Assembly: GCF_036971445.1 (NCBI RefSeq)
Contig: NC_091470.1
Location: 337,466,001-337,530,000, forward strand
Length of the DNA: 64,000 nt
Direction of reading: 5' to 3'
Source of the DNA: Narcine bancroftii
Lineage: Eukaryota
Numbering within the stretch: position 1 is the stretch's first letter; the number at the start of each line of letters is the position of its first letter. Shown one piece after another: positions 1,476 to 59,400 of this stretch. The notes below the pieces were generated by a model. The model was not told where the DNA came from and did no database searches. It was given only the letters and a program-made list of their open reading frames with translations. The translations under genes were made by a program, and so were the position numbers.

Positions 1476-4423
1476 ACTGAATGCAGTTCTCCATTTATGG
1501 TCTCACCATTGTTTCATGAAAAGGAGAATCTTTGCTGTTAGTTAGATCTGTATAAGCTTCCTACATCAACATGTTTGTCGAAAAAGTTGCTATCTAAATT
1601 TTGATTCATCTTTGACCATTTCTTCTCAAGACAGAGCTCCAGAAGTAGCAAAGAATGTCTCAACAGATAGCGGTAAGAGATAGGAGCATGCTTGATGCCA
1701 CTAAAATTGATTGCTTTGTGACTTGAGTGTTTTAGTTATTTCCTGCCTAATTTTAACTTCCACTGGTTCCCACTTTTCACGCTGCCCTTAGGCAACTATT
1801 TGTCACGCTTCTGCTTTTGCAGTAACATAGAAAAGCACCGACAGCATTGCACAACATTTTCCGATAGCTGATCATTCTCCTCCTCCAGTGGTCCTCTATG
1901 ATATTTCTATTCGCTCTTATTGGGGAACAAATGAAGCAGCCTTTGCCCAGAGCTTCAGGCAGGAAGGTTAATGAAATTCACCGCATCAATCTGCTTTCTT
2001 CCATTTCCCGTAACCATTGGGACATCAAAGCAATTCAATAAGGATGAATATTTTCTGTCTTGAGAGTTTAATATCCCCTGTAGGAAGCATGACTGAAGAA
2101 ATTAGATTATATATCAGTATAGGTCCTTAAGAACATTAGTTTAGAATACCTCAGGGAACTATAATTCCAGCCGTCAATGACTAATAGGCACTACAGGAAA
2201 TTAATTTGTCAGTTCTGAGTACGTACTAGATTGCCACTAAAATTTTATTTAAAATCTACCACAATTCCACTTTAACCTCCACTAAAAATTGTAACCATTC
2301 TTAATTTTTAGTATTGGTTAATGCAGTAAATTGACAATCACTGGAGCTATTCAATAGTTAATAAAGATGTGTTGTACAATGCTCTTAGTGCAATATTAGC
2401 AGAATGAATTATCTCTCAGTACTAAACTTGCATCACCAGATCCTCGTCTTAGTCACGTTCCTATGGTGATATTTGATAGAAAGAAGGCTGTGAAGGCTCT
2501 GTGGCCTGTCCTTTTGATATTATCTAAGCATGATAATATCACATACTGACAAATAATGCAAAGGTTCATGTGGTCTTAGCGCAAACTGATGTGTGAACTT
2601 TAGTACACTTTGATTTTGAAGTAGCAACATTTTGTGTGGGTGTGTGTTTTGTGTGCGGCATTTGTAGTGACTTAACTATTTTAAAGGCAGGGAGATTATT
2701 GCGTTTGAAGTGCGATTCACACCAGCTTTAATTGTGAGCTAACAACTACCAAAACATGCTGGGAAGAAGAAAATCTCTCATTGAACAGCAAAGCTTTCAA
2801 GCTCACTGGTTACCTTCCCTTGAAATGTACTCTTTGACATGGTATTTCACTGGGAGACCTGCTCCTAGCTGGTTGGAGACCTACACCGTGCAGAATCTCT
2901 CAAGCCTAGATTCCCAGCTTGATCCCAGAGTAGAGTTAAAACTCTTATGGCTCACTTCCCCAGTTATCAGATCGTTCTCCCCAAATCACTCAGGTACAAG
3001 TGAAAAGTAAAAGAATTAGGGGGCGCCAATTTCAAACATTTATATTTTTTTTTACCTATTAATTTTTCTCAACTTTTTTTGCTGGTTGCTTGATTTCCAG
3101 ATAACAGGGAATTTACTGTATACACAATCCAGATATCACATCCACTGAGGATGAAAGCTGCTGATCACACACCCATGCATTTGTTACTTCCATATATAAT
3201 GATTCCAGGGCATTGCTTGCCAATCATCCTCATTCCAACCTCCATAAGCATGGTCATTTAAAATCCCATTGCTGCAGCTCTCGCTCACACCAACAACTTT
3301 TCACCAATTGGCTGATCTGCAACAGCTTCCAGTTCTAAAATTCTTATTCTGGTTTTCACTTCCCAACACAACCTTACCTTGCAGACTCGGTGATCTCCTC
3401 CAACTCTATTTGGCTGCAAGATATCTTCAATCTAATACTTGCTCCTCCTCTTATTCACCTTTGAATCACATTATTCCACCATTGAGGCCCCCCCCCAGGC
3501 ATTATTACTCCCTAAAATTCCCATCCTCACTTCTTTGCCTCACACTTGTTTCAAGCCACGTATTAACATTTACTTCCTACACGTTTCATGAGGCCAATAT
3601 TTTATTTGATATGCTTTGTTAAAGGCAAAATGTAAATGAAAATTCTTGTTGATAGTTTTTGCTTAATCCTATAACCTCTCCTGGCTCACTAGTCCCCGAA
3701 TCTTCCAGGAACCTGCTTTGTTCTCTTAACTTTCTCAATGCATTCACATCATTCTGAGGGCTAGATCCACAAATACACTTGAAAAATCACCAGGCCCACA
3801 GTTTCTACAAAACCTCATTTAAACATGAGTAACATTATTGAGAATGTGTCATTTTTTGCTTTTTTTTTGCACCTTGTTTCTAGAGGAAAATCTAATCTAG
3901 CTGCAGGCTCACTGTTTAATGATCTAGTTTTCATCCTGACCTTGAGGATTGTCTTTGTGTGTTCTCAAGATTACCATGTGGGCTTCCTCTGAATATTCCT
4001 GGCTTCTTCCCAACATGCAGGTTCCTCGGTAAATTGGCTCTTGCATGTTGGCAAGTGGGGTAGTTGAGACTTTTGGGAGAATAAAATGGGATGAGTTGAC
4101 TGTCAAGATGGACTTCGTAGGTTCATAGACCCACTTCTGTGTTGTCTGACTCTATGTCTAATGTAACTGTGCTGCTTTCCAATAATACAAGGATGTCCTA
4201 GAGAGCCTTGACAAAGCCAAGGAATTTGCAGTGCATTGATACTCACCTTGCATGCTCTGTCCCAATACCACTGATGAAAGGTAGAATCTTTTTCTTTTGC
4301 AAATCTATGTTTTTTTTAAAAACTTGTAATGAACCATTTGGCTTCATTTGATTACCAATATATGTTGCATGCTGCACGTACATCTTCCAAGGAATCCTGA
4401 CTTGTAACCTTGTTTTACTAAAG

Positions 4424-7400
4424 ATTGCTCAGAACTTGGACAGGAGCCAACCATCAGACACGTCCCGGACTCCGGAAGATGTGTTTTTACCACCACCACC
4501 TCCTGATTTGCTGGAAGCTTCCACTGAGCCAAAAATACTGACAGAAAATCAGCCTCAAAGGATCCCACCCCCTCCACATCAGACCTTTGTTAAGTTACAG
4601 CAGCAGCGACAGATCAATGAATTGAAGAGGCTTTATAAGCACATGCACCCGGAGCTGAGGAAACATTTGCAGGAGGTGGTCACTGAGGATTGGGCTGAAG
4701 TGCTGGATGCTGAACGCACAGCTGCTGCCTTGGCAACTGGAAGCCAGGGAAACAGTGAGGCAGTGCTTCAGACCGAGGTCCAGTCTATGCGGTGGATATT
4801 TGACAACTGGCCATTGGACACAATTGGAGATCACCAAGCAACGAAGAAGATGACAGAAGAAGAGGCTATCCTCAGTGGAGACGTGCAGAGCACATCACGC
4901 AAATTTGAAAACCAAACACTGAATGAAATCAGTTCCCAGTACTCAGAATATTCTTATAATTCTAGCATCAGAAAAGAGCAAACAAAGGGTGATGTCCGTA
5001 CTGCTCTATGGTTGTTTGAAACTCAGCCTATGGATTCTCTGAATAAAATCTACTCCAAGGAAAATGATCTCCAAGAAGCAGTCTTGAAGGAACCTGTACA
5101 AAAAGGGGACGTCAGAGGTACAAAACTATTATTTGAGACGCATCCGTTGTGTGATTTAGGACGCAGCAACTCGATGGAAGAGAGCAGCTTATTGCAACTG
5201 CGTTCAGAAGTGCAAGAGCTGAAAGGCGATGTCAATAGGACCATAAAGCTCTTTGAGACAGAACCACTGTGCGCCATTCGTGATACTGTCGGCAACATCC
5301 ACCAAATCAAGTCCATTTGCAGAGAAGAAATCCAACAGAGTGAGAGTGTCCAAAGCACTCGGTGGCTGTTCGAAACTCAACCCCTCGGCAGCATCAACAA
5401 GAATCTCGCAGACGTGAAAATCATTCGGGGCATCTCGCTGGAAGAGACCCAGCAGAGTGGTTGTGTTGGCAAAAAACGATGGCTCTTCGAAACACAGGCC
5501 TTGGATGCTCTCAACGAGCAATCTGAGGATGCAGGAAGCACTGTCAACATCAGGGTAATAGAAGGAGGAGATGTGAATAAGAAATGCTGGCTTTTTGAAA
5601 CTCAGCCTCTGGACTCATTAAAAGAAAGTCACCCTGAAGAGGTTGCCAAGGAACAGGTCACTGGAGTCAATGTGCACTCGTCTCTTTGGTTGTTTGAAAC
5701 TCAGCCAATGGAAATATTGAAAGACAGCTTTGAAGTGGGTCACTTGAAAAGAGTTATGACAGAAGAAGAAAGGGGAGATGTAAAGAACAAGGCTCATTTG
5801 TTTGAAAGCTGCTCCCTCGACAATATCAACAAGGGACACGGTGAGGCTTCCTGTAGCACTGGCAAAACAGAGATGCAGAAGGGCGATGTCGAGACATACA
5901 AACATCTCTTTGAAACCCTTCCCCTTGACGGCATTAAAAATTCAGATGAAATATCAACTGAGAATCATGTTGAAATCTTAGCTGGAAATGTAAATGAAAT
6001 CAGAGCTCTCTTTGAAACGGTCCCCCTTTATGCGATTATGGATGGCGCCGGCCACTGCCATCAAGTCAAGACAGTAAGCCGGGAGCAAGTCGTTAGGGGT
6101 GACATCAAACACTACAGGTGGATGTTCGAGACCCGCCGCCTGGATCAGTTTGGTGAAGGCACACAAAATGTGGAGTTGGTTAAAGGCATCACCAAAGAGG
6201 AGATCCAAGCCAATGACATGAAGACAACAAGATGGCTGTTTGAAACCCAGCCACTTGATGTCATACATGCCAATGTCAACAAAACAGAAATTCAGACTTC
6301 TGAAAAGGAAGATATCCTGAAAGGTGATGTGAAGAAATGTAGGTGGCTGTTTGAAACCCAACCAATGGATGCTTTGTATGAAAGAGCAGAAGATAAGCAA
6401 GATTGTGAAGTCCAACAAAAAGGTGCCGTCAAATCATACACTTGGATATTTGAGACACAACCAATGGATAGCATTAATGAGAATGAAGAACGACACCTGA
6501 AAGTCTGCAGCAGGCAAATGGATGACATTATAGGAGCCGACGTAAAGACCAAAAAACATCTGTTTGAAACAGAGCAATGTGGAAATATTGGTGGAGAATT
6601 AGATGAGACTCAGAATATGAGGTACACAAGTGAGGTAGACGTCCAGTCAGGGAATGTATCAAGAGTGAAAGAAATATATCAGAGTAACTCACTGAATGAA
6701 ATAGCTGATGTGGAAGAAAAGAGAAAGAGCTTCACGTCCACACAAGTGGATGCCATGCAACCAGAAGCAGGTTGTGTACATAAGTTCACTTGGCTCTTTG
6801 AAAATTGCCCCATTGGCTCCATTAAAGAAATGCCAGAGGAGGTCACACCCATGAATACAATTACTGATGTAAAGGGGGGTGATGTCGGCGGCAAAAGATT
6901 TGTTTTTGAGACCTATTCACTGGACCAAATAAAAGAGGAAACACAGGTAAAGAACTTCACTTCAAGAAAGGAAGAAAGTGTCAAAGGCGATGTGAAGTCA
7001 TGCACCATGCTGTTTGAAACGCAACCCCTCTATGCACTCCGAGACAAGGAGGGCCAATATCACGAAGTTACTACAGCAAAGAAGGAAGAAATCATGAGGG
7101 GAGATGTAAGAGGAACGAGGTGGCTCTTTGAAACCAAACCATTGGACACAATTAAGCCACTGGACGAAGTATTTGTGATCAGAGCTGTAACCCAGGAGGA
7201 TGTGCAGGCAGGAGATGTGACAGCAGCTCGATGGAAATTTGAGACCCAGCCTTTGGATTCAATCAGAGATGAGGCGGGGCCAGGAGTGAAAATGGTGGAT
7301 GAAGTCCAGGGAGGTGATGTCCAAGCGAGCAAGCAACTCTTTGAAGGACAGCAGGGAAGCCAGAGGTATGTGAGGATGGTGAGTGTCAGTGATGTTCAGA

Positions 7401-10400
7401 GGGGAGATGTCAGGACTTCGACTTGGCTGTTTGAAAACCAACCCATTGACTCTTTGAAAGGTGAAAGGGCAGAAAGCGCAGGTGTAACCACAGTTCAACG
7501 AGAAGATGTACAGAAAGGAGACGTGAAAAGATGTACTTGGTTGTTCGAGTCCCAACCATTGGACAGTCTCAAAAATTCAGACAGTTCAATTGGGAAAGAA
7601 ACCAAGGAAGAGGTGGCGTGTACAGATGTAAAAACCACAACGTGGCTGTTTGAAACGACACCCTTGGACACATTCATTCATACTCAAGGTAACACAGAAA
7701 GTGCCAATGTGAAAAAGCAAAGTATCCATACAAGCTTGGAAATCCTCATTAATTGTGGAGCCATCAAGTCAAGGGGACTTATTATTGAATCAAGTGAGAA
7801 AGGAATTCTAAAAATGGCCAAATATCAACTGACAACTCAGAATGATCCACACGTTGTAAAAGAAGAAGTTATTGGTGGCAACTTGCAGAGAATTCTGATG
7901 CAGTTACTTCAAAGGAAGGAATCCCTTCATTCTGAAGGTATTGTGCTGAAGGAAGATGAAAGTGGAAGGATTTCTACAAGAACGATTCAGCTGTTCTCCC
8001 AGTCCAAAGTTAATATTAATGAAGAATGTGTGAAAGAAGACAGCACTTGTGCAATTTATAGCTTTCTTATGGAAGTTAGTGAAATCAAACAGGGGATTTT
8101 GATTCAGGAAACTGAAAAAGGAATTGTTCAGATTACCATATATTCTCTAATTAACCATCCCCAAAATGGGGATGAGAAAGAGACGATCAAAGGAGATGTA
8201 AAGTCTACAATTAATAGTCTTCTTGCTTCAACTCAGCAGCAAGCAACCTCAACAGTGAAACGTGATGAAAAGGAAAGAGGAAATGTACAACTTTACACAA
8301 CATGCATTGAATCAGGGACATTGGACTGTCTCAAGGACAATCAGGAAGACTCTGATGACCCTGTAGTTTCCACTCAGAGAGAAGAGATTGTACGTGGTGA
8401 TGTCGAAGGTGCCATTAGGAATTTGACAGAGAGCAGAGGCCAAATTGAAAAGTCAGTTGATGACATTATTCCGGGTGACGTCAAAGGAACCAAGAAATAT
8501 TTCTTGACAGAAGCACAGAGAGGCCAAGGTATCACTCAAAAAGATGGTGGTGACATCAGTCCTGCTTATCAATCCTTGGGGCAAGCTGTAAACGTTGGGG
8601 TGAAAAAAGACACATTGCCTGGTGATGTTAAGGCCAAGCCAGAGAATGCAAAGTACCAAACAAGGAAGTTGGATAAGGAAGATGCTCTTTGTGGCAACAC
8701 GAAGGACACTTTGACTGTGTTGCAGGAACACACTTTTGATCCGAAGGAAGCCAGTTTAAGAGAGAGCGCAGAATCTTCTTTTTGCTCATTCGGTAAATCC
8801 TCCTCTTCAGTTTCCGACATTGAGGCAGCAAATGCAAAAGGCCAGGACCTTCAGGCAGCAATGCAGAACCTCAGAGAAGTGACTGCTGAAGCAAATAATA
8901 TACAACAGAAATCAAGCATGCAAGAACATTTCAGGAGTCATGCGCAAAGCACAGCAAGTACTCAGCAACATCATCATCAAAGCACCCAGCGGAACAAAAC
9001 ACTGAAGAAAGAGTTGAAGAAAACAACACAAATCTCCTCACAGCAGCAAAGCAGCGCAGATTCAAGACATCAAGCCAGTGCCCGAGTGACTGTCACTCAG
9101 TACCAGCAACCAAAGACACAACAGAGCATTCATCAGGTCAGTGCCTCTGAGGGAACGCAAGGACTTCAGGCATTTATGGCCAGCCCTAATGAAAGTCAGA
9201 GATGTGGACATTTTACTGGAATAGTTCAGGAGAGTGGAGATAAGATGAGAGCTGCCCCAGACCAAGTGCAAGTTCATGGTCAGCACCTGTCCACGAACTT
9301 AGAGAAGGAAAATCAGGCAGTGGCAGATCAGGTAATTGTTAAGGGAGATGTTAACTCAACTCCAAAGGCTTTAAAGGATTCAGTAACAGAGCAGGAATCT
9401 GTTGAGAAAGAGGAGGTGGTCCGAGGTAACTTGCAAGCAGCTCTCCAATCCTTAGGAAAAGCTAACATGAACATATCCAAAGGTGATTTTAAAGCTGCCA
9501 TGATATATAGAACAGCAGGCCAGTCACATTCATGTAACCAAAGGAAGAGTGGTGTTAGAACTGTTGATAATCAGATTTCACAACCACAGTCTGATGCTGA
9601 GTTTCCTTCTCCAGTTCCAGTGACCAGGTCCTCTGCACCATCGATTGAAGCTTGTGGCCATCAGCCCGCAGAAGGCACCCCCTCTCGCTTAAATCAGCCA
9701 AGTTCATCCACAGTGAGAAAACCACCACCTTCTCAGTTTCCTCCATTACTTCCACCCAAGATGCAGGAAAGAAACATCTCATCTAAACCATCTATTGCAC
9801 CAAGGCCACAGGCAATCCCTGCCAGGCACTTGCCAACGGAGAGTGGGAAACCAGCTCTACCTCCAAAGCCTGAACACTTGCAAGCAATCTATTCTGTTCC
9901 AAGTCCACCCATTCCACCAAGAAACTATGCATCACTCATGTCAAAATCAAGCCCATTGTCTCCAGCTGGGTGCAAATTGTGTCGAGTAAAACTGATTAGG
10001 GGATCTCTTCCTGCAGAAACTACCAATTTGTCAGCGTATCAGAACATGCAACTAGAAAGGAAACATGAACAGCTTTCACTGGAAGAAAAATCCACTACAA
10101 TAGCTTCTTATACCAAAGGAATGAAAACTCCCTTGCAGTTGGCAGAGGAGAAATATAAGCAAGGAAAGGAAGAACTCAGTCAGTTAAATGCAGTAGTAAT
10201 CAATCCAACACCAGATACATCATCAGATCAGGGGCACCAGAGAAGAACAAGCTTCTCTGACAGTCCCAGTGACACCAGCGACTCAATGATGAGACAACCA
10301 GAAATGTTAGCACACAAAATGAATGCAACAGAGGTGGTCCAGGGGTCAATGCGGTCTTATTCAAAAGAAAGCTCAGCAAGAACTGAAGTGGGCCAGGAAA

Positions 10401-12223
10401 GCAAGTCTGTTCTTCAAACCTTCAATGCTCAAAACAAATCAAATTCTCCCCAAATAAGCCAGCCTAACAAAAGAGAATTGCCATTATCAGATTCGGAAGA
10501 TAGATTAACTTTACCAAAGAAAGTTAAAACCATGTCACCAAAGACCTCTGACAGGATTACTGCACCAAACAGTTACCAACAGCCTCAATCAAGTCCAGAA
10601 TCACACTACCAACAACCAGTTAAAACGCCTTTTGAACAGGCAGAGTGTCAAACTGCTCAGTATCATAAATTCGCCAGTCAGCACGGGTTAGATGCAAATG
10701 ACTGTCAAGGGTTGTTAGACAAAGGCCAGCTGGGGACCCCGGAATCTGATGCAGTTCTAATGCGTGGAGACCGACAGCAATGTAAAGAGACAGAAGATGA
10801 TCGCAGGAAAAGGTTATCAGTTCACAAGGAAGAAATAATGCAAGGAAACGTGAAGGCAGCAATGGAGATCTTTGAAAACCTAAAGAAACGAGAAGAATTG
10901 CAGCAAATATTAACAAGAGTTAAAGAATTTGAAGAGGAGACTTTCAAAGTTGATGTCAAAGGTCTGAAGAGTTTATTCGAGAATGTGCCTGAGTGGGTGG
11001 TGTCCAAGAACAATGTGGTTAAGCAACTTAAACCAATTGACAGTCGCAAAGACGAGATGCAGAATCAACCCAGAGTGGTCCAAGGTGAAGTAGAAAGTTT
11101 GTCTTCAGTGGAACTTGTGTTTGAGGATCTTGAAAGGGCAAGTGCGGAGATAATCTATCTGAAAGAGCAGACATTGGCAAAGCTGTTACACATTGAAGAA
11201 TCCATTAAAAAAGCTCTCTACTCTGTTTCGAATCTGAAATCAGAGTCTGATATTGCAGGACTCTCTGGTCTATTTGGAGAGTCACTGGGAGCCTCTTCAA
11301 ACTCTCCGTCTGGCAACATCAAGAAAATCAGTCTGGTCTCCAGCAAATCAAACTTAGAAAAAGCCAAGCAGTTGAAAGAAAGTCAAATTCACAAAGAATG
11401 GACAGAAATGTCAGAGAAGCAAGCTCAGCCATCATTAGAAATTCCATCGCTATCTACTCGTGTGAACTCCCCATCATCTCCTTCCTACATTTCCATCGAG
11501 TCGGCAGTGAGAAAACCTGCAGATCCTTTGAATAAAAATGTGTCTGGTCCACAACTGGAGGTGGAGCACATTTCACCTTCTCCTCAGAATCAAGTTGTCA
11601 TCCCCTGTTCCTCAAAAGTGAAACCCTTTGATGACTCTGAAGATTCAATTGTTTGCAATGGTTGCAAGAATGCCGACAAACCCACAGAGGCAGAAAAACA
11701 ACACTCTGTTCCAAGAAAGGAGTTTGTGCAAAGAGATATGAACAATGAGTTCATTCAAACAAACAGAAAGGAAAGCAATGTTGTTAATGCCAGAGACAAG
11801 AGAACCAACTCACCTTCAGGTTGCATCTCATTAAGTGGATTTAAAAGCAATGTGGCTGACAGAACTCAGAGCCCAATCCCTCAGAGAACCAAAAGTGTAG
11901 TGGAGTTCAAGACAGGACCCGATGGAGGTGAAATAGTTGGTACAAAGACCATCATGGAAAAATACGAAGAAATTGATTGTTTTGGGAACAAAATTATCAC
12001 ATCAAAAACCTCAACCACTGTCACAAAGCAATCTGAGTCAACAACTTCATCAACATATGAAGTAGTTCAAGCACCACCCAGGTATGATGTTGCAACTTCA
12101 CCTCTTCTTAATAGACATCTGCAGAGTCAGGCAGGGCCAGCTGAAGATTCACTGCAGAACAGCAAGGACAATGGAGTAGTGTTTCTTTCTTTTGGAAATT
12201 CCAATTCAGCAAAGAGATCTTAG
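4424..12223 (+). CDS. XIRP1: Xin actin-binding repeat-containing protein 1, giant coding exon (start codon not in this exon)
   Basis: ~2600-codon ORF with ~27 Xin repeats (GDVxxxxWLFETQPLD), an N-terminal LPPPPP, and QQQRQINELKRLYKHMHPELRK and VQSMRWIFDNWPLDTIGDH, which resemble XIRP1 more than XIRP2. It also has a later proline-rich region and a conserved C-terminal block (LYSVSNLKSESDIAGLSGLF). Acceptor-like ttgttttactaaag ends at 4423; stop TAG at 12221-12223. Confidence 0.95.
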   Translation: MAQNLDRSQPSDTSRTPEDVFLPPPPPDLLEASTEPKILTENQPQRIPPPPHQTFVKLQQQRQINELKRLYKHMHPELRKHLQEVVTEDWAEVLDAERTAAALATGSQGNSEAVLQTEVQSMRWIFDNWPLDTIGDHQATKKMTEEEAILSGDVQSTSRKFENQTLNEISSQYSEYSYNSSIRKEQTKGDVRTALWLFETQPMDSLNKIYSKENDLQEAVLKEPVQKGDVRGTKLLFETHPLCDLGRSNSMEESSLLQLRSEVQELKGDVNRTIKLFETEPLCAIRDTVGNIHQIKSICREEIQQSESVQSTRWLFETQPLGSINKNLADVKIIRGISLEETQQSGCVGKKRWLFETQALDALNEQSEDAGSTVNIRVIEGGDVNKKCWLFETQPLDSLKESHPEEVAKEQVTGVNVHSSLWLFETQPMEILKDSFEVGHLKRVMTEEERGDVKNKAHLFESCSLDNINKGHGEASCSTGKTEMQKGDVETYKHLFETLPLDGIKNSDEISTENHVEILAGNVNEIRALFETVPLYAIMDGAGHCHQVKTVSREQVVRGDIKHYRWMFETRRLDQFGEGTQNVELVKGITKEEIQANDMKTTRWLFETQPLDVIHANVNKTEIQTSEKEDILKGDVKKCRWLFETQPMDALYERAEDKQDCEVQQKGAVKSYTWIFETQPMDSINENEERHLKVCSRQMDDIIGADVKTKKHLFETEQCGNIGGELDETQNMRYTSEVDVQSGNVSRVKEIYQSNSLNEIADVEEKRKSFTSTQVDAMQPEAGCVHKFTWLFENCPIGSIKEMPEEVTPMNTITDVKGGDVGGKRFVFETYSLDQIKEETQVKNFTSRKEESVKGDVKSCTMLFETQPLYALRDKEGQYHEVTTAKKEEIMRGDVRGTRWLFETKPLDTIKPLDEVFVIRAVTQEDVQAGDVTAARWKFETQPLDSIRDEAGPGVKMVDEVQGGDVQASKQLFEGQQGSQRYVRMVSVSDVQRGDVRTSTWLFENQPIDSLKGERAESAGVTTVQREDVQKGDVKRCTWLFESQPLDSLKNSDSSIGKETKEEVACTDVKTTTWLFETTPLDTFIHTQGNTESANVKKQSIHTSLEILINCGAIKSRGLIIESSEKGILKMAKYQLTTQNDPHVVKEEVIGGNLQRILMQLLQRKESLHSEGIVLKEDESGRISTRTIQLFSQSKVNINEECVKEDSTCAIYSFLMEVSEIKQGILIQETEKGIVQITIYSLINHPQNGDEKETIKGDVKSTINSLLASTQQQATSTVKRDEKERGNVQLYTTCIESGTLDCLKDNQEDSDDPVVSTQREEIVRGDVEGAIRNLTESRGQIEKSVDDIIPGDVKGTKKYFLTEAQRGQGITQKDGGDISPAYQSLGQAVNVGVKKDTLPGDVKAKPENAKYQTRKLDKEDALCGNTKDTLTVLQEHTFDPKEASLRESAESSFCSFGKSSSSVSDIEAANAKGQDLQAAMQNLREVTAEANNIQQKSSMQEHFRSHAQSTASTQQHHHQSTQRNKTLKKELKKTTQISSQQQSSADSRHQASARVTVTQYQQPKTQQSIHQVSASEGTQGLQAFMASPNESQRCGHFTGIVQESGDKMRAAPDQVQVHGQHLSTNLEKENQAVADQVIVKGDVNSTPKALKDSVTEQESVEKEEVVRGNLQAALQSLGKANMNISKGDFKAAMIYRTAGQSHSCNQRKSGVRTVDNQISQPQSDAEFPSPVPVTRSSAPSIEACGHQPAEGTPSRLNQPSSSTVRKPPPSQFPPLLPPKMQERNISSKPSIAPRPQAIPARHLPTESGKPALPPKPEHLQAIYSVPSPPIPPRNYASLMSKSSPLSPAGCKLCRVKLIRGSLPAETTNLSAYQNMQLERKHEQLSLEEKSTTIASYTKGMKTPLQLAEEKYKQGKEELSQLNAVVINPTPDTSSDQGHQRRTSFSDSPSDTSDSMMRQPEMLAHKMNATEVVQGSMRSYSKESSARTEVGQESKSVLQTFNAQNKSNSPQISQPNKRELPLSDSEDRLTLPKKVKTMSPKTSDRITAPNSYQQPQSSPESHYQQPVKTPFEQAECQTAQYHKFASQHGLDANDCQGLLDKGQLGTPESDAVLMRGDRQQCKETEDDRRKRLSVHKEEIMQGNVKAAMEIFENLKKREELQQILTRVKEFEEETFKVDVKGLKSLFENVPEWVVSKNNVVKQLKPIDSRKDEMQNQPRVVQGEVESLSSVELVFEDLERASAEIIYLKEQTLAKLLHIEESIKKALYSVSNLKSESDIAGLSGLFGESLGASSNSPSGNIKKISLVSSKSNLEKAKQLKESQIHKEWTEMSEKQAQPSLEIPSLSTRVNSPSSPSYISIESAVRKPADPLNKNVSGPQLEVEHISPSPQNQVVIPCSSKVKPFDDSEDSIVCNGCKNADKPTEAEKQHSVPRKEFVQRDMNNEFIQTNRKESNVVNARDKRTNSPSGCISLSGFKSNVADRTQSPIPQRTKSVVEFKTGPDGGEIVGTKTIMEKYEEIDCFGNKIITSKTSTTVTKQSESTTSSTYEVVQAPPRYDVATSPLLNRHLQSQAGPAEDSLQNSKDNGVVFLSFGNSNSAKRS

Positions 12224-17475: not shown

Positions 17476-17625
17476 TCCTTTGGCAAACTGAAACTACAAT
17501 TCTGCATGAGTCGGGAATGCTCTGCAGCATGTCAAGACCTAGTTTATCACTAAGAACACCTAGCAACAGACGGACTTGTCTTCTACACTTCCTGCTTCTG
17601 TTGCAAGCATTGTGGACTCGTTAAG
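17476..17625 (+). pseudogene. Degenerate LIM-domain exon 1 (XIRP2/LIMA1/LIMD2-type), remnant of the XIRP1 locus
   Basis: cccag|TCC...TTAAG|gtgagt. Translates [46 protein letters not shown], which aligns with [33 protein letters not shown]. In-frame TAA at 17551. Confidence 0.85.
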
Positions 17626-18476
17626 GTGAGTGCTTTTTTTTTTAACCATTCACCTGCAATGTATTGTAATCATTTAATTTCAAACCAGTCCAATAAAAAT
17701 TAGTTTAATTGTCTTGATCTTAAAATAAATAATTTAAATGTCCTCTATCTCTAAGTTTGTAAGATCGTGATTAACATTTGATTATATACCAAATATTTCT
17801 TACACATTCAATGGTATCCTGTGAGAGGACTTAAAAGTATCACCAATCTAACAATGAAACTTGTAAAACAAAAATATTGTCTGTTGGTTGATGGAACACA
17901 GATAATAAACCAAATGGAGACTGCTTGTATGTTGTAGCGGAGAAGCACTGGCCTTTAGGTGTAATGGAAAAGACAGCAGTTCAACTTTATTACTTCTGTG
18001 CCCTTGAGAGAGACACGAGAGATTGGAATTTCTTTCAATATTTAAATCGAAGTTGGATAGTTTATCAGTGGAAACAGGTGTAAAAGAAAAAAGGCAATGA
18101 AGTCCTTTTTCAATTTTCTGCACTAAAAACAACATACCTTGACTAAAAAGGACACCAGTTATCTCTTCCTCATCTACTGCGTGTGTGGTGTCAATAACAA
18201 GGATCTTGTAACTGCTGTTGTCTGCATTAACTATCTGGACAATGCCTGATGTCTCTCTTACACATCTCAAGTTCAATTATTTTTGATATTCCAGATCTGA
18301 TTTTAACCCATACTGCTTAGTTGGTAGAATAAGATTTGAAGGATAAAATTAGATTGTGTGTTAATTGGGCTTCAACTCTGAATTACATCCTTAAAGCCAG
18401 GTAGAACCATTGGATCCAACTCCAAAAAGCATCATACCTTCTTGCTACGATGCAAGTATTTGTTTTTCTTTTACAG

Positions 18477-18592
18477 CCTCCTTAACTTTGCGGCCATGCA
18501 AACTAAATTTTCTTGCAGGGCTCACGATGACAGGCAGTGCAATATGTAAGGCTATTACTGTGAAGACTGACTTCATCTCTGTGAAGTTATGG
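18477..18592 (+). pseudogene. Degenerate LIM-domain exon 2, truncated by a CR1 insertion
   Basis: Strong acceptor tgtttttcttttacag|C. Translates (S)LLNFAAMQTKFSCRAHDDRQCNM*GYYCED*...KLW, aligning with [32 protein letters not shown]...HKELW. Stops at 18547 and 18568. Confidence 0.8.
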
Positions 18593-21500
18593 TACATGTA
18601 GGTATCAACCACATAGGGAGGAAGAGAGAAGAGGTCCTGAAAAGTGAGTACAGGGAGCTAGGTAGAGAGTTAAAAAGAAGGACCTCCAAGGGAGTAATCT
18701 TGGGATTATTGCTTGCGCCTCGTGACAGTAAGAGCAGGACTAGAATGAGATAGAGGATGAATGTGTGGCTGAAGGGGTGGAGCAAAAGGCAGGGATTCAA
18801 GTTTGTGGATCACTGCTGCAGCAACTCTGAGTGAAGCCTCGGGAGGCTGGCTCAGGCTTATATCCTGGAGGGTGATTGACACCCAACCGGGTGGGGTTTG
18901 ATCCAATCAGGCCGACTGATTGACAGCCGGCCAGGTGTTGTCCTGTCCCCTTACACTCCTGCAGGTACAGAGGTTTCCCCCTGCAGTAGGCTGGTGGTGT
19001 ACCACACCACAGTGGGCCATGGTTTGATGATAATAGGCAAACCATTTAGGACCGAGATGAAGAGGAATTTCTTTACCCAGAGGGTGGTGAATCTGTGGAA
19101 TTCATTGCCACAGAGGGCAGTAGAGGCAGGTTCATTAAATATATTTAAGAGGGAATTAGATATATTTCTTCAGTATAAGGGTATTAAAGGTTACGGAGAG
19201 AAGGTGGGGACGGGGTACTGAACTTTAAGATCAGCCATGATCTCGTTGAATGGCGGAGCAGGCTCGAAGGGTCGAATTACCTACTCCTGCTCCTATCTTC
19301 TATGTTTATGTACAAAAAGGACGAGTTGCATTTGAACCCCAGGGGGACCAGGATTCTGGCCGGGATGTTTGCTAGGGTAACTCAGGAGACTTTAAACTAG
19401 AATGGCTGGGGGGGTGGGGGGGAGGGAACCTAATGAAGGAGAACAGCAAGGAAAAGGTTAGAGTGCAATCAGAGAAAGCTTGTAGACAGTGTTGGGGGGT
19501 GGAGGAAGGCAGGTGATAGAAAAGGGGGATACTCTATATGAAGATGGACAGAGGTCGATTGCAAAAGATCATAAGAGAGGTGTTGGTAAAGATAGGGGCA
19601 TAAAGGAAGTAAAAAGTGGGAATTCTCTAAAATGCATATATTTTAATGCCAGGAGCATTGTAAGGAAGGTGGATGAGCTGAAGGTATGGATTGACACTTG
19701 GAAGTATGACGTGGTAGTGATTAGTGAAACATGGTTACAGGAGGGATGTGACTGGCAGCTAAATATTCCTGGATTTAGTTGCTTTAGGTGTGATAGAACT
19801 AGGGGTGGGGGGGTAAGAGGGGGTGGGGTTGCACTAATTGTTAGAGAAAATATTACAGCGGTGCTTAGGTCTGATAGAATAGAAGGCTCGTCCAAGGAGG
19901 CTAATTGGGTGGAACTGAGGAATGGGAAAGGGGAAGTTACAATTATAGGGGTGTATTATAGACCACCAAATGGGGAACATGAATTAGAGGAACAAATTAG
20001 TAGGGAGATAGCAAATATTTGTAATAAGCACAGGCTAGTGATTGTGGAGCATTTTAATTTCCGAATATTGATTAGGAAACCCATTCCGTGAAAGGGCTGG
20101 ATGGGTTGGAGTTTGTAAAATATGTGCAGGATAGCTTTTTACATCAATAAGTGGAGGTACCAACTAGAGAGGGAGCTGTGTTGGATTTACTGTTGGGGAA
20201 TGAGATGGATCAGGTGACGGAAGTATGTGTGGGGGAGCACTTTGGGTCCAGTGATCATGGTGCCATTAGCTTCAGGGTAATTATGGAAAAGGATAGTCTG
20301 GGACAAGAGTTGAAGTTTTTGAGTGAGGAAAATCTAGGTTTGAGGAGATGCGAAAGGATTTACAGGGGGTGGATTGGGACAATTTGTTTTCTGGGAAGGA
20401 TGTAATAGAGAAATGGAGGTCTTTTAAAGGAGAGGTTTTAAGAGTACAATATCTTAATATACCTGTGAGGTTGAAAGGTAAGGTCAAAAGTTTGAGAGAT
20501 CCGTGGTTCTCAAGGGATATTGGAAATTTGGTTTGAAAAAAGAGGGAGTACTGCAATAAATATAAGAAACAGGGAAAAAAAGAAATGTTTGGTACTATAT
20601 TGAATGTAAAAAAAATCTTAAGAAAGAAATTAGAAAAGCTAAAAGAAGGTATGAGGTGGCTATAGCAAGCAGGGTGAAAATAAATCCAAAGGGTTTCTAC
20701 AAATATGCAAATAGCAAAAGGAAAGTGAGAGATAAAATTGGTCTAATAGTGAATCAGAAAGGACAAATGTGTGTGGAGCCAAAAGAGATGGGAGAGGTCT
20801 TGAACAATTTCTTTTCCTCAGTATTTACTGAGGAGAAGGATATTGAACTGTGCAGGGTAAAGGAAGCAAAGGGGGTAAATATGGAGACTATAGTGATTAA
20901 GACAGAGGTAGTACTGGAGCTTTTAAAACATATAAAGGTGGATAAGTCTTCAGTCCTGACAGGATTTTTCCCAGGACCTCGAGAGAAGTTAGTGTGGAAA
21001 TAGCAGAGGTTCTGACAGTGATTTTTCAAATGTCATTAGAGACGGGTATAGTGCCGGAGGATTGGCATGTTGCACATGTGGTTCCTTTGTTTAAAAAGGG
21101 TTAGAGGAGCAAGCCTAGCAATTATCAGCCTGTAAGTTTGACGTCTTTGGTAGGTAAAATGATGGAAAGCATTCTTAGAGATAGTATATATAAGTATTTG
21201 GAGGGACAGGGTCTGATCAGGGACACTCAACACGGATTTGTGTGTGGAAGGTCGTGTTTGACCAATCTTGTTGAATATTTTGAATGGGTGACTAGGAATC
21301 TTGATGAGGGAAGAGCAGTGGATGTTGTTTATATGGACCAGTAAGGCCTTCGATAAGGTTCTGCTTGGGAGGTTAGTTAGGAAGGCTAAGTCCTTGGGTA
21401 TTAATTTGGAGATAGTCAAATGGATTCAACAGTGGCTAGAAGGAAGGTGCCAGAGAGTAGTAGTAGATAATTGTTTGTCAGGATGGAGGCCGGTGACAAG

Positions 21501-22480
21501 TGGTGTACCTCAGGGTTCGGTATTGGGACCACTGCTGTTTGTCATATATATTAATGATCTGGAGGGTGGGGCAGTAAATTGGATTAGTAAATATGCAGAT
21601 GATACTAAAATAGGGGGAAATGTGGATGATGAAGAGGGTTTTCAAAGATTGCAGAGGGATTTAAACTGCTTAGAGGAATGGGCAGAAAGATGACAGATGG
21701 AGTTTAATGCTGATAAGTGTGAGGTGCTTCATTTTGGAAAGAATAATCAAAGCAAGACACTGTGGTAAATGGGAGGGCATTGAAGAATGCAATGGAGCAG
21801 AAAGATCTAGGAATAATGGTGCATTGTTCCCTGAAGGTAGGATAGGGTGGTGAAGAAGGCCTTTAGTATGCTTGCCTATATAAATCAGTGCATAGAATAT
21901 AGGAGTTGGGAAGTAATGATGAAACTGTACAAGGCATTGGTGAGGCCAAATTTAGAGTACTGTGTGCAGTTCTGGTCACCGATTTATAGGAAGGATATTA
22001 ACAAGATAGAGAGACTGCAGAGAAGATTTACAAAAATGTTGCCTGGGTTTCAGCACCTGGAATACAAGGAAAGATTGAGCAAATTAGGTCTTTATTCCTT
22101 GGAACGTAGAAGGCTGAGAGGAGATTTGATAGTGTTTAAGATAATGAGAGGGATAGAGAGAGTTGATGTGGAAAGGCTTTTCCCATTGAGAGTAGGTGAG
22201 AGGTCATGGGTTGAGAGTTGATGGGCAAAGGTTTAGGAGTAACATGAGGGGGAACTTCTTTACTCAGAGAGTGGTTACTGTGTGAAATGGGTTTCCGGGA
22301 AAGGTGGTGGAGGCAGGGTCAATTTTGTCATTTAAGAAAGAGTTGGATAAGTACATGGATGGGAGGGGGATGGAGGGATATGGGCAGAGTGCTGGTAGGT
22401 GGAATTAGAGGAGGGGACTTGGATCAGTGCGGACGAGAAGGGCCAAATTGGCGAGCTGAAATTGTTATATGTTATATTGA
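18591..22480 (+). mobile_element. CR1 LINE, 5'-truncated in ORF1, ORF2 degenerate
   Basis: ORF1 esterase remnant (HVGINHIGRKREEVLKSEYRELGRELKRRTSK), APE endonuclease (CIYFNARSI, ISETWL, GVYYRPP, GSSDH), RT (GVPQGSVLGPLLF, KYADDTK), C-terminal LERRRLRGDL and a tgttata tail. Multiple stops and frameshifts. Confidence 0.92.
18815..19310. mobile_element. Composite insert in CR1 ORF1: partial LTR (family A, 18815-19011) plus a CR1 3' end (~19012-19310)
   Basis: 18815-19011 matches the solo LTR at 29577-29846. It is followed by tttaggaccgagatgaagaggaatttctttacccagagggtggtg...ctcctgctcctatcttctatg, a CR1 3' terminus. Confidence 0.75.
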
Positions 22481-22493
22481 AAAGCAGTAAATT

Positions 22494-23492
22494 ACTCTTT
22501 GCAGACGATGCCGCTTTAGTTGCCCATTCAGAGCCAGCTCTTCAGCGCTTGACGTCCTGCTTTGCGGAAACTGCCAAAATGTTTGGCCTGGAAGTCAGCC
22601 TGAAGAAAACTGAGGTCCTCCATCAGCCAGCTCCCCACCATCACTACCAGCCCCCCCCACATCTCCATCGGGCACACAAAACTCAAAACGGTCAACCAGT
22701 TTACCTATCTCGGCTGCACCATTTCATCAGATGCAAGGATCGACAATGAGATAGACAACAGACTCGCCAAGGCAAATAGTGCCTTTGGAAGACTACACAA
22801 AAGAGTCTGGAAAAACAACCAACTGAAAAACCTCACAAAGATAAGCGTATACAGAGCCGTTGTCATACCCACACTCCTGTTCGGCTCCGAATCATGGGTC
22901 CTCTACCGGCATCACCTACGGCTCCTAGAATGCTTCCACCAGCGTTGTCTCCGCTCCATCCTCAACATCCATTGGAGCGCTTTCATCCCTAACGTCGAAG
23001 TACTCGAGATGGCAGAGGTCGACAGCATCGAGTCCACGCTGCTGAAGATCCAGCTGCGCTGGATGGGTCACGTCTCCAGAATGGAGGACCATCGCCTTCC
23101 CAAGATCGTGTTATATGGCGAGCTCTCCACTGGCCACCGTGACAGAGGTGCACCAAAGAAAAGGTACAAGGACTGCCTAAAGAAATCTCTTGGTGCCTGC
23201 CACATTGACCACCGCCAGTGGGCTGATATCGCCTCAAACCGTGCATCTTGGCACCTCACAGTTTGGCGGGCAGCAACCTCCTTTGAAGAAGACCGCAGAG
23301 CCCACCTCACTGACAAAAGGCAAAGGAGGAAAAACCCAACACCCAACCCCAACCAACCAATTTTCCCCTGCAGCCGCTGCAACCGTGTCTGCCTGTCCCT
23401 CATCGGACTTGTCAGCCACAAACGAGCCTGCAGCTGACGTGGACTTTTACCCCCTCCATAAATCTTCGTCCGCGAAGCCAAGCCAAAGAAGA
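22494..23492 (+). mobile_element. RTE-clade LINE, 5'-truncated
   Basis: LLFADDAAL RT motif, QLRWMGHVSRM, RLPKIVLYGEL, a C-terminal CxxC...H zinc finger, and tail gccaagccaaagaagaa. Confidence 0.92.
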
Positions 23493-24379
23493 ATCTTTCC
23501 AATAGCAACCGAGCTGAGCATATTCTACAAACTGCAGAAATTCATAACTTTAAAGTTGCACCCAATGTTGGAAAGCGAGGGAAAGAATTTTGGGCCTGCT
23601 GAAAGAAATAGTTCTGTCCTAGTAGATGGTGCAATGTCCATGCCAACAGTGAACCTTAGAATTCAGCCTTCTTTAAAAGCATCAGATGATCACTAGCCTT
23701 CGATAGAATTTCAGACGAGAGAAGTGTGTCACCCTTGAATCTGATCGACCGTTCACGTAAAGAAATGAACGTAAAGAACTTTCAAAGTGAATATCTTGGA
23801 ACAGAAATAGAGCAATTCTGATTTCACAATATCAAGAAAATTAGTAAAGAAAATGAACTCTGAAATGCGCCAAATTCTTTAACAAAATGTGTGGAACAGG
23901 GAGAGAAGTGCAAAGATTCTAATCAAATAGAAGATGGGGTTCTCAATAATGGATGAAGGTGAAAATTACCATTTTGCGTATTGAAGGGCAAATTGTAGAG
24001 TCTTTTACTGTTTTAAAATCTAAAGTGCTACATTTCATCATCTTCATTTGCTAACCTGTTTCAAAACATAAAAGGAGCTACAGCAACATCAAAACCACGG
24101 CTGCCAGGCTGGGAAATTGATTCTACCCACAGGCTGTGAGATTAATGTCACCCTAGGACTCATAAATTATTTATACCTATTTATTTTATTATATTTTTAT
24201 GTATATATGTGCACATCATGTGTGTCTGTGTATGCACCATGGGGCAGAGAATTGCAGTTTCTTCTGGTTGAATATGTACAGGCAGATGATAATAAACTTG
24301 AACTTGAAGAAACCAACATTCGAGGTCCCAAATTGGAAAAAAAAACATTTCTCGGATAGAAGGCAGGATTAGAACAGAG

Positions 24380-44300: not shown

Positions 44301-44354
44301 CTAAAGTGATGCAATACATTTAAGCAATTAAATATCAGATCCTCAGAGATTGGT

Positions 44355-56488: not shown

Positions 56489-59400
56489 TGTTGGGTGCTA
56501 TTGGTAGCCCCAATAATGACGCAGACGGAAGACTGAGGGGAATGATAGGCATTATTGAGCTAGAGACTGCTGGGCCTTTATGGTCCGGGGTCACATGGGC
56601 AGGACTAAAGGAGGAGCTAAGGCAGGGAGACATCCGGAGGGCGGGCCAGCCAGTGCATATAATCATATCACCACATTCACCCCCTCTTTTTTAAAAAAAT
56701 AACCCACCGGTAAACAACAAAACCCGGAAGCAATAACAGCAGCAATTTAACAAAGTAATATACAGCAGAATTTAATAATCAATATACAAAGTGGCAGGAG
56801 AAGCGGACGCCCCCACCAGCTAGAGGTTGAGCTGCACAGGCGGCCTCCTCTGTCTGCCGGACGGCTGGGGAACCGGCATGTCCGTACGGCGCTCCTCCGG
56901 AGAGGGGGCTGACAGGGGAGTGTCCGCTGCAGGAACTGTGGGGGTTGGGGTGCTGGTGGTGTACTCCTGGAGTGCTTGGGTGTCCACCGCAGCTGCATGA
57001 GGGGTAGAGGTCTGGACGTCCGGCTGCAGGACAGGCAGCTCAGACTCCAGGGCCGAGCTTGGATGTGGCATCGTTGGGTCCGCGGCGTGGTCAGCACTGT
57101 CAGGAAGAAGGCATTCCTATTTGTGGTCGGGAGGGGGCCCTTGAAATCGACACTGAGTCATTCAAAAGGGCGAGTGGCCTTGATGAGGTATGCCTTTTCT
57201 GGCCAGTAGAACTGAGGCTTACACTCGGTGCAGATTTGGCAGCGTCTGGTCATGGACTAGACATCCTCGATGGTCATGGATTGGACATCCTCGATCTATA
57301 AAGTGATATAACCTCATAACTCCAGGGTGGCACAGACTATTGTGCAAGACCTAGAGATGGTCGAGATGCGCACTGGCGTACCTCCCTCGGGATAGGGCAT
57401 CCGGGGGATTGTTGAGCTTACCCAGCCGGTACAAAATGTCATAGTTGTAGGTGGATAACTCAATCCTCCACCTCAGAATCTTGTCATTCTTGATTTTACC
57501 CCATTGTTTGGCACTGAACATGGTCACTGCCCTCTGGTCAGTCAACAGGGTAAATCTCTTTTCGGCTAGGTAGTGTCGCCAGTGACGCACTGCCTCAACG
57601 ATCGCTTGTGCCTCCTTCTTGATGGAGGAGTGCCAGAGTTCGAGACTGTGAAGGGTGCAGGAAAAAAATGCTACTGGCCTGCCTGCCTGGTTTAATGTGG
57701 CGGCCAGTGTGAAGTAGGAGGCATCGCTTTCTATCTAGAAGGGGATGGACTCATCAACGGCATGCATCGTGGCCTTAGCGACGTCTCCTAAAATTTGGTT
57801 GAAGGCAGCCTGGGCCTCCGCCGATAATGGAAAAGTGGTTGACCGAATTAGGGGATGGGCCTTATCGGTGTAGTTGGGCACCCACTGCGCACCTTTTTAG
57901 TGCCTTCAGGGTGTTTGGGACAGGGAGCTCCAAAAGTGGTTGCATGCGGTCAGATCAAGGGTAATGACACCATGTGCCACGACGCATCCAAGAAGGGCCA
58001 GGCGCTTCATGTTGAACATGCATTTGTCCTTGTTGTACGTCAAGTTGAGTAACTTCCGTACACAAGAACTTTGCGAGATTTGCGTCGTGGTCCTGCTGGT
58101 CATGGCCGCAGATGGTGACATTGTCGAAGTATGGGAACGTTGCCGTCAGCCTGTGTTCCTCCACCATCCGGTCCGTTACTCTCTGAAAATCAGAAACACC
58201 GTTAGTAACGCCGAAGGACACCCGCAGGAAATGGAAGAGTTTCCCGTCTGCTTCGAATCCAGTATAGATTCGATCGCTCAGATAGATGGGGAGTTGGTGG
58301 TAAGCCGACTTGAGGTCAATAGTTGAAAAAATTCTGTATTTGGTGACCTTATTGACCAAGTTGGCTCTATGGGGGAATGGGTACGCATCTAGCTGGGTGA
58401 AGTGGTTGATGGTTTGACTGTAATCAATTACCATCCAGGACTTGCCCGACCCTCTGACCACGAGGACCTGTGGTCTCCAGGAACTGGTGCTAGGGGCTAT
58501 GATCCCCTCCACCAGAAGTCGCTGAACCTCAGCCCGGATAAATTGCATATCCTCCGAACTATAGCACCGACTTTTGGTGGCGATGGGTTTGCAATCTGGG
58601 GTGAAGTTCGTGAACAGCGACGGAGGGGGCACCCTTAAGGAAGTGAGACCGCAGGTTGGTGCTGGGTCTCAAGTGCCAATGCCGCTGGACGGTACCGGAG
58701 ATTGAGTGCATGGGCCACAGGATGGTACTGGGGGCTGGTTATCCAGTCGGGGATGGACGTCCGAATGCTGTGGGCTGTGGACGGTCAACGGTGGTTGGAA
58801 GCCTCCGAACACCATCGTCATGCTCTTAAACTGACTCTGAAAGTCAGGGCCTAGGAGGATCGGCGCACAGAGGCAGGGCAAAATTAATAACGCAAAGTCG
58901 TTATAACATTCCGCCCCACCCCCTCACCATCAGTGACACTACACATTACCCCTGGATACTCGTCTGTTGATCCATTACTGCCACTGAAACCATCCCGGTC
59001 ATTGGTCAGACTCGGATGGAGAGTCTCTGGACCACGTCGGTGTGTACGAAAAGTTCCGTACTGCCGCTATCAAAAAGACAATTTGTTTTATGCCCATTCA
59101 CCTCGATCTACATCATTGAGTTCAAGATCGGGTGAGGACTGGCTTGATTCAGTGTCACTGAAGCGAGGACTGGCCTTTCTTCATCGTCGTCATTGGCGAG
59201 GAGGCCTGCCCAAGATGGTGACCTCCATGTTAACCATGCAGCGTCGGATGAAGGCGGCGGCGGAAGTGGAGTCGTGGTGGTTGGAAGTGACGTCACTGGA
59301 GTGGTAGGCTGAGGTGCCGAGGTTGGTAGCGCTGGCTGGTAATACAGCACTCCCCTCACCGCACACACGGTCAGCACCGGAAGCTCTTCAGGAACGCATG

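What the first reader, a model, noticed from the sequence alone, without database searches (positions are those of the whole stretch)
17476..18592. Fossil LIM-domain exons downstream of XIRP1: a lost Xin-LIM isoform
Seen: two exon-like blocks on the XIRP1 strand, 5-6 kb after its stop, with canonical splice sites (cccag/gtgagt; cttttacag). They translate into a LIM domain split at the K-L-S| junction (TTA AG|C). Inactivating lesions are TAA at 17551, an apparent 2-nt deletion before TTAAG, TAA at 18547, TGA at 18568, and loss of zinc ligands (FH->FY, shifted first Cys). Known: XIRP2 has LIM-containing splice isoforms related to LIMA1/LIMD2, and mammalian XIRP1 has no LIM domain. Inference: the ancestral XIRP1 also had this LIM module, and this lineage is pseudogenising it while the Xin-repeat exon stays intact. 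The signal is invisible in the ORF track.
Basis: partly seen in the sequence, partly recalled or inferred. Interest (0 to 1): 0.85.

Follow-up and report, generated by a model that had tools for sequence, protein, structure and literature searches.

The report
Dead LIM exons of ray XIRP1
Behind the muscle gene XIRP1 of an electric ray lie two broken exons for a zinc-binding LIM domain; database gene models of some sharks and bony fishes have them unbroken, so XIRP1 likely once made a second, short actin-binding protein, as its sister gene XIRP2 still does.

Summary
Confirmed, with corrections. Two decayed exons 5-6 kb behind the XIRP1 stop encode an EPLIN-class LIM domain (exon A vs LIMD2 E=2e-9). 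The intron position matches this genome's LIMA1, LIMD2 and XIRP2. The three stops are real. Two related species carry the 2 bases missing at 17619. Orthologues exist as gene models: horn shark P0122, sawshark P0252, sawfish P0293 (nearest in the tree, 96/96) and medaka 'xirp1 isoform X7'. Horn-shark and teleost models share their N-terminus with Xin-repeat XIRP1 models, so this is not a separate gene. Corrections: the isoform lacks Xin repeats (it skips the big exon). The module is long dead, not now decaying: a relative about 9% diverged has its own stop and a broken donor. The acceptor at 17476 is probably not the original one. Exon B does not end at 18592; two LINEs split it and it resumes at 23492. 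XIRP2's short LIM isoform is known. I found no paper giving XIRP1 one, but automated annotation already holds it. Moderate interest: it is likely the fourth EPLIN-class duplicate.

The parts
1631..1672 (+). Small upstream exon; holds the ATG (1655) that opens NCBI's model P0001 (MSQQIA...). Probably the last shared upstream exon, out of its ancestral frame (tentative).
   Evidence: homology to P0007 scores only 34 vs control max 35
4424..12223 (+). XIRP1 large Xin-repeat exon, open frame, 22 Xin repeats; begins ATT where 9 of 10 other cartilaginous-fish models checked begin with Met (the tenth is partial)
   Evidence: (P0001 100% identical)
17509..17625 (+). Dead exon A: first three quarters of the LIM domain; Cys>Ser 17521, TAA 17551, His>Tyr 17584, 2-nt deletion behind 17619; donor intact. 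Start uncertain: 17476 is an in-frame AG, 17491 a K-x-Q look-alike, and D has 132 extra letters at 17505-17507
17626..18476 (+). Phase-2 intron inside the Ser codon of K-L-S, same position as in this genome's LIMA1, LIMD2 and XIRP2
18477..18586 (+). Dead exon B, 5' piece: end of LIM plus decayed EPLIN motif; TAA 18547, TGA 18568
18587..22478 (+). CR1-like LINE inserted in exon B (GDSL-like ORF1 remnant, endonuclease ORF2; 69-76% identical to the other copies listed), with nested repeats; contigs of B and D leave the window at 18586
   Evidence: the name CR1 is recalled
22492..23491 (+). Second, young LINE (about 94-99% identical to other copies; RTE-like by recall) directly behind the first
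23492..23690 (+). Dead exon B, 3' piece: resumes at the LINE tail (8 of 16 residues identical to P0252 72-87) and runs to the decayed K-L-R-I-S-W-P-P motif; weaker likeness to about 23990
   Evidence: (score 76 vs max 60 of 25 controls)

Best explanation
These are two broken LIM-domain exons behind the intact Xin-repeat exon of XIRP1, likely the dead remains of a short splice form that skipped the Xin exon. In the ancestral gene, shared small upstream exons were likely spliced either to the large terminal Xin exon (long isoform) or past it to exon A and exon B. That gave N-terminus + EPLIN-class LIM + EPLIN motif + long C-terminal tail, the layout shown for XIRP2. By analogy with short XIRP2 the protein would bind and help repair strained F-actin (not tested). 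Constraint likely relaxed in the ray stem, since the sawfish copy is open but far diverged. The module then died in the ancestor of this species and organism D, with a shared stop in each exon (inferred from table rows). It has since drifted: a 2-nt deletion, probably loss of the acceptor, two LINE insertions, and loss of the tail and of most upstream exons. Redundancy with intact LIMA1, LIMD2 and short XIRP2 is the likely reason it could go (inference).
For: Homology and intron position. Same layout at this genome's XIRP2: 3204-codon Xin frame, LIM exon 13.6 kb behind it, then a 482-codon exon. Its first 280 aa are 65% identical to the N-terminus of Heptranchias XIRP1. Medaka LIM proteins are named xirp1 isoforms X6/X7. 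Tree: window + sawfish 96/96, inside an elasmobranch group 96/98, apart from LIMA1, LIMD2 and XIRP2. A remnant upstream exon lies 3.5 kb before the window (score 74-76 vs shuffle max 40-42). Drift: of 14 listed changed codons against D, 2 are synonymous, 11 missense and 1 nonsense; D's donor is GT>AT; exon-bearing pieces differ by 5-9%, intron pieces by 8-13%. Sawfish vs sharks 38/68 and 43/70, shark vs shark 57/68, LIMA1 control 62/68.
Against: All orthologous LIM isoforms are database gene models; I saw no transcript evidence for them. Adjacency of the LIM and Xin models in horn shark and sawfish is inferred from accessions and contig lengths, not read from DNA. Shark and teleost XIRP1-LIMs do not form one clade in the free trees, though one clade is not rejected (p-AU 0.55). 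The window's branch is long (1.3), so its grouping with the also-long sawfish branch may be helped by attraction. The shared stops rest on absent rows in a table that hid 84 rows. Otten 2012 (PMC3280289, passages read) describes zebrafish xirp1 as one large exon without such an isoform. No Pfam hit for the separate exons.
Confidence: 0.9

Rival explanations
1. The exons are the remnant of a separate neighbouring LIM gene, for example a stray copy of LIMD2, unrelated to XIRP1 splicing.
For: The best PDB hit of exon A is LIMD2. NCBI names the horn-shark and sawfish models 'LIMA1-like' rather than XIRP1. XIRP1-LIMs sit next to LIMD2 in the trees.
Against: The LIMD2-like C-F-C-C of exon A is a derived change at 17599: B and D have C there and sawfish has Arg. 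Real LIMD2 and LIMA1 lie intact on C24. The window is closer to sawfish P0293 (33/57) than to any LIMD2 (at most 29/71). The horn-shark and teleost LIM models carry the XIRP1 N-terminus.
Confidence: 0.05
2. The exons are still used in this ray, as non-coding or decay-targeted 3' exons that regulate XIRP1 output, and that is why the splice sites look intact.
For: The donor after 17625 and the acceptor before 18477 are canonical in the window, and an in-frame AG exists at 17475.
Against: The donor is GT>AT in organism D. Exon pieces diverge about as fast as the introns beside them. Poly(A)-signal hexamers lie 0.1-0.7 kb behind the XIRP1 stop, upstream of exon A.
Confidence: 0.04
3. The lesions are assembly errors and the module is intact in this species.
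For: No DNA run of the window's own species was laid on the exons.
Against: At least 7 independent lesions, including 4.9 kb of LINE sequence; the 7.8-kb frame beside them is error-free; D appears to share two of the stops and has further lesions of its own.
Confidence: 0.01

Closest known systems
XIRP2 short (Xin-less) isoform
   Same: Upstream small exons, a large Xin exon that is skipped, then two exons giving LIM plus C-terminal domain (PMC10259482 and PMC3280289, passages read). Same layout and intron phase at this genome's XIRP2.
   Different: It sits at the XIRP1 locus and is dead here. In mouse the long XIRP2 also reads exon 8 in another frame (PMC10259482), whereas this XIRP1 frame stops inside the large exon. 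The orthologous tail varies: about 1,150 aa in sawshark and long in medaka, cut soon after the ISWPP motif in horn shark and sawfish.
EPLIN class of LIM proteins: LIMA1, LIMD2, XIRP2 (Koch et al. 2012, PMC3305314, passages read)
   Same: Single LIM followed by the EPLIN motif; same phase-2 intron in K-L-S; 34-41% identity to the window's remnant.
   Different: That paper lists three human members and does not mention XIRP1 (0 occurrences). The XIRP1-linked LIM would be a fourth.
RefSeq/UniRef models: horn shark XP_067887537.1, sawfish XP_051879284.1, sawshark UPI00398F3DB4, medaka xirp1 X6/X7 (XP_078791615.1, XP_078791616.1), teleost 'LIM domain-containing protein'
   Same: Likely direct orthologues of the dead exons.
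   Different: Their frames are open. They are automated predictions, mostly not named XIRP1. The sawfish and sawshark models start at an internal Met and lack the first Cys pair, so their completeness is unknown.
Zebrafish and mammalian XIRP1 (Xin) as described
   Same: Large intact Xin-repeat exon.
   Different: Described as one large exon with intra-exonic splicing and no LIM isoform (PMC3280289). The absence of a LIM in mammalian XIRP1 is recalled and was not tested here.

Membership tests
Functional LIM domain (PF00412) | Eight zinc ligands in one open frame (pattern recalled) | tested here: not met
   6 of 8 ligands kept (first Cys>Ser, His>Tyr); one stop and a frameshift inside the domain, two more stops just behind it
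Functional LIM domain (PF00412) | Pfam score over the curated cut-off | tested here: not met
   0 families for 6 of 6 frames of the separate exons; the orthologues P0122, P0293, P0386 and P0269 all pass
EPLIN class by descent | LIM sequence of the LIMA1/LIMD2/XIRP2 type | tested here: met
EPLIN class by descent | EPLIN motif directly behind the LIM | tested here: inconclusive
   Aligns in place but is decayed in the window and altered in sawfish; clear in the shark and teleost orthologues
EPLIN class by descent | Phase-2 intron in the K-L-S Ser codon | tested here: met
   Same in 3 of 3 paralogues of G000 and in the window once the 2-nt deletion is allowed for
XIRP2-type gene layout | Small upstream exons, large Xin exon, two LIM/tail exons downstream on one strand | tested here: met
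XIRP2-type gene layout | LIM isoform and Xin isoform share their N-terminal exons | tested here: met
   Met in gene models of orthologues: P0122 vs P0007 65% over 280 aa; eel P0269 vs gar XIRP1 40%, E=2e-41
XIRP2-type gene layout | Exon-skipping transcript is really made | not testable with these tools
   No shark or teleost transcript reads were available; one run of guessed RNA from the window's species, held as contigs only
Pseudo-exons (unitary loss) | Disabling lesions | tested here: met
   3 stops, 1 frameshift, 2 LINE insertions, probable acceptor loss
Pseudo-exons (unitary loss) | Neutral divergence | tested here: met
   Small sample: 2 of 14 listed changed codons against D are synonymous; exon and intron divergence are alike
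Processed pseudogene or copy of LIMD2/LIMA1 | No introns, and placement inside the parent's clade | tested here: not met
   Intron kept; falls outside the LIMD2, LIMA1 and XIRP2 groups

The most novel reading that the evidence does not exclude
The XIRP1-linked LIM is the missing fourth vertebrate EPLIN-class duplicate. XIRP1 and XIRP2 are then EPLIN genes carrying a giant alternative Xin exon. The LIM tree pairs XIRP1 with LIMD2 and XIRP2 with LIMA1 (97/89; the other pairings are not rejected, p-AU 0.32). That would place the Xin exon before the first genome doubling, with two later losses, earlier than the published model (PMC2478706). An unstudied Xin-less XIRP1 actin-repair isoform would be alive in teleosts and some sharks, would be spared by a null mutation in the large exon, and would have been lost separately in electric rays and in mammals.
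Probability: 0.5. Interest if true: 0.62.

Novelty: new member of a known kind. Interest (0 to 1): 0.45.

Why it matters
The thing in the window is dead DNA. Its value is as a pointer: it shows that XIRP1, described as LIM-less, descends from a gene with the same two-output splicing as XIRP2, whose short form repairs hair-cell actin (PMC10259482). That likely completes the set of four EPLIN-class duplicates. It bears on when Xin repeats arose, and it predicts an overlooked isoform in fish models. The zebrafish null xirp1-sa0046 is a stop at Lys271 of the Xin protein (PMC3280289) and would not remove such an isoform if zebrafish has it; I did not test zebrafish. It is also a datable series of isoform loss within rays.

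Tried and rejected
Pfam on the separate exons: no hit. PDB with exon B alone: none. Upstream exons for the first ~220 aa of P0122/P0007: nothing above shuffles in 120 kb or by tblastn in 200 kb upstream, and no N-terminal match in the genome search. The long tail of P0252 past about residue 250: no match in the rest of the window plus 100 kb downstream, nor genome-wide under a stricter first look. A 'PGRLPISWP' hit at 29772 on the minus strand scored no better than shuffles and was rejected. P0122's tail vs 23490-24190 scored 52 vs control max 62, not significant. Other sharks' LIM isoform: one search found 2 proteins, both horn shark; one search listed 120 of 217 hits with only the query as XIRP1-LIM. 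No amniote XIRP1-LIM appeared among the proteins held, but only the best 150 of 2325 and 120 of 217 were listed, so this is no evidence of absence. RNA: no RNA holder listed. X5 (RNA by guess) gave no single-copy contig on the exons; a part without cover shows nothing. X9 covered little beyond repeat parts and one 180-base piece. Papers: 6 searches listed no paper on a XIRP1 LIM isoform; two key papers (Francis 2015 and a 2014 Xin review, both recalled) are not held, and subscription journals are largely missing. Seen as matched passages only: PMC3280289, PMC10259482, PMC2478706, PMC3305314, PMC3306315, PMC7269912; no supplements read. Earlier scan findings: none. Atlas look-alikes point to a 54-member chordate cluster named 'LIM domain-containing protein isoform X2'; a lead only.

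Full report
Setting. The window is G000:C5:337,466,001-337,530,000. Its long frame 4352-12223 has 22 Xin repeats and is 100% identical to P0001, which NCBI names XIRP1-like of Narcine bancroftii, an electric ray; the contig lengths also agree. The next hits are XIRP1 of rays (73-80%), sharks (65-70%) and bony vertebrates (best 120 of 1270 listed). XIRP2 lies elsewhere, on C9 (3204-codon frame, 46% identical).

The observation. The splice sites, the three stops and the His>Tyr change are at the stated places. Exon A hits LIMD2 (E=2e-9) and EPLIN (1.6e-4) among solved structures. Against true orthologues both exons stand far above control stretches (105 vs max 52; 96 vs max 38; 60 controls each). 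Read with X at each break, they score E=2.8e-20 on a profile of 37 intact EPLIN-class LIMs (single target). Pfam misses the separate exons and exon B alone has no PDB hit, which explains why annotation overlooks them. LIMA1, LIMD2 and XIRP2 of the same genome all break at the same phase-2 position in K-L-S.

Whose exons are they? A search with the N-terminal extension of Heptranchias XIRP1 (P0007 1-270) among shorter proteins returned 2 proteins, both horn shark. One, P0122, is that N-terminus (65% identical) joined to a complete LIM, with no Xin repeats. Its tblastn hits in the window are exon A (3e-7) and exon B (5e-4). The library-wide search (best 150 of 2325 listed) added candidates; I named 17 of them. 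The other two are LIMA1-like by name. The 13 teleost proteins all match the N-terminal extension of gar XIRP1 (E from 1e-39 to 2e-4). In a tree of 38 LIM domains the window groups with sawfish (96/96) inside an elasmobranch group (96/98), apart from LIMA1, LIMD2 and XIRP2. Caveats: the window's branch is long, and shark and teleost XIRP1-LIMs are not joined in the free trees, though one clade is not rejected (p-AU 0.55; window left out).

(a) One upstream exon remnant with an open frame lies 3.5 kb before the window (L014 6409-6541; score 74-76 vs shuffle max 40-42). A second, at 1631-1672, supplies the ATG of NCBI's model; its homology alone is not significant. The rest of the N-terminal exons were not found in 200 kb. 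(b) Exon B is interrupted at about 18586 by a CR1-like LINE (GDSL-like hit 0.005, endonuclease hit 2e-6) and then by a young second LINE. It resumes at 23492 with 8 of 16 residues identical to sawshark and runs to the decayed ISWPP motif (76 vs max 60 of 25 controls). The 1,000-residue tail seen in sawshark was not found. (c) Homology of exon A starts near 17509. The paralogues LIMA1 and XIRP2 and the horn-shark protein have K-x-Q three residues before [KR]-E; the window has four. Organism D carries 132 letters where the window has one, at 17505-17507, inside an unbroken contig. The simplest reading is a deletion that took the acceptor and first codons; an insertion in D is not excluded, because the letters were not shown.

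Age of the loss. Contigs of two related organisms (B, D; DNA by guess or unlabelled) cover both exons at about 90% identity. Both have AA behind 17619, and both leave the window at 18586, so the frameshift and the LINE are specific to the window's lineage. D shows no difference at 17551-53, 17584-86 or 18547-49, while equally supported D-only rows on both sides are listed. These lesions are therefore probably shared (84 rows were hidden; B's state is unknown). D has a further stop at 17560 and a donor GT>AT at 17626. Of 14 listed changed codons, 2 are synonymous, and exon-bearing pieces differ about as much as intron pieces (5-9% vs 8-13%). The module was thus dead before this split. Sawfish keeps an open frame but is only 38/68 and 43/70 identical to sharks, where shark vs shark is 57/68 and LIMA1 62/68: relaxation likely began in the ray stem.

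How it most likely worked. Shown in other work for XIRP2: a long isoform with the Xin exon and a short one that skips it and gains LIM and a C-terminal domain, enriched in stereocilia and needed for repair of actin lesions (PMC10259482; PMC3280289 for zebrafish xirp2a/b; passages read). This genome's XIRP2 has that layout intact. Inferred for XIRP1: the same either-or splicing; horn-shark and Heptranchias models diverge at the same residue (Q-I-K) into LIM exon or Xin exon. An actin-strain or repair role for the XIRP1 short form is analogy only. Its loss was likely tolerated because three EPLIN-class paralogues remain intact.

Comparison and novelty. Koch et al. (PMC3305314) list LIMA1, XIRP2 and LIMD2 as the human EPLIN class and do not mention XIRP1. 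Otten et al. describe zebrafish xirp1 as a single large exon. Grosskurth et al. (PMC2478706) have no occurrence of 'LIM', 'exon' or 'shark'. Six searches listed no paper on a XIRP1 LIM isoform, but RefSeq already annotates one in medaka. So the isoform type is known, the XIRP1 member is unreported as far as I could search, and the window holds a dead copy. In G000 the three CSRNP genes lie 1.9 Mb from the window, 0.35 Mb from XIRP2 and 0.2 Mb from LIMA1. Sodium-channel genes lie 0.7 Mb from XIRP2 and 4 Mb from LIMD2, but none was found on C5. This fits four duplicates of one ancestral region (the human positions beside the Hox-bearing regions are recalled). The unrooted LIM tree separates XIRP1+LIMD2 from XIRP2+LIMA1 (97/89; window, sawfish and outgroups left out), but the two other pairings are not rejected (p-AU 0.32). 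Simakov et al. (PMC7269912, passages) place HoxA and HoxD on alpha segments and B and C on beta, and could not pair them uniquely. If XIRP1 and XIRP2 go with A and D (recalled), they would have split at the first doubling. That is the bold reading, at about even odds.

Verdict. A real, correctly spotted fossil; interpretation supported at about 0.9. It is an old unitary loss of a Xin-less LIM isoform of XIRP1, a new member of a known kind. Interest 0.45.

Noticed in passing
window 4424-4426 and 1655: The large exon begins ATT (Ile) where 9 of 10 other cartilaginous-fish models checked begin with Met; NCBI's model takes its start from a small exon 2.8 kb upstream, which may be a decayed short-isoform exon reused as a start.
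   Followed up: partly
P0016-P0040, P0069, P0089, P0118 (turtle, crocodile, bird XIRP1 models): Many of these amniote XIRP1 models keep the upstream N-terminal exons spliced to the Xin exon, although no amniote LIM isoform turned up; the LIM exons may have been lost before the upstream ones.
   Followed up: partly
P0014, P0393, P0330, P0342: NCBI's product name 'LIM domain-containing protein' is carried both by coelacanth XIRP1 (Xin repeats, no LIM) and by teleost LIM isoforms, a hint that annotation treats them as one gene.
   Followed up: partly
C-termini of P0252, P0386, P0042: A shared end motif (W-F/I-D-D-L-L in sawshark and medaka; similar in a sturgeon XIRP1 model) suggests the long tail of the short isoform is ancestral to jawed vertebrates; BLAST found no overall match of P0252 to P0042.
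   Followed up: partly
window 18428-18449: B and D have 67 letters where the window has 20, another deletion in the window's lineage, in the intron before exon B.
   Followed up: no
window 22479-22491: About 13 bases between the two LINEs may be a scrap of exon B; not established.
   Followed up: partly
G000:C1:480.0 Mb: The fourth sodium-channel locus found is on C1, not on C5 near XIRP1, so that linkage (recalled from human) seems broken in this genome.
   Followed up: no
window 57955-58668 (minus): Reverse-transcriptase-like frame of an LTR retrotransposon type (recognised by recall); further LINE frames at 44310, 49951 and 60566.
   Followed up: no
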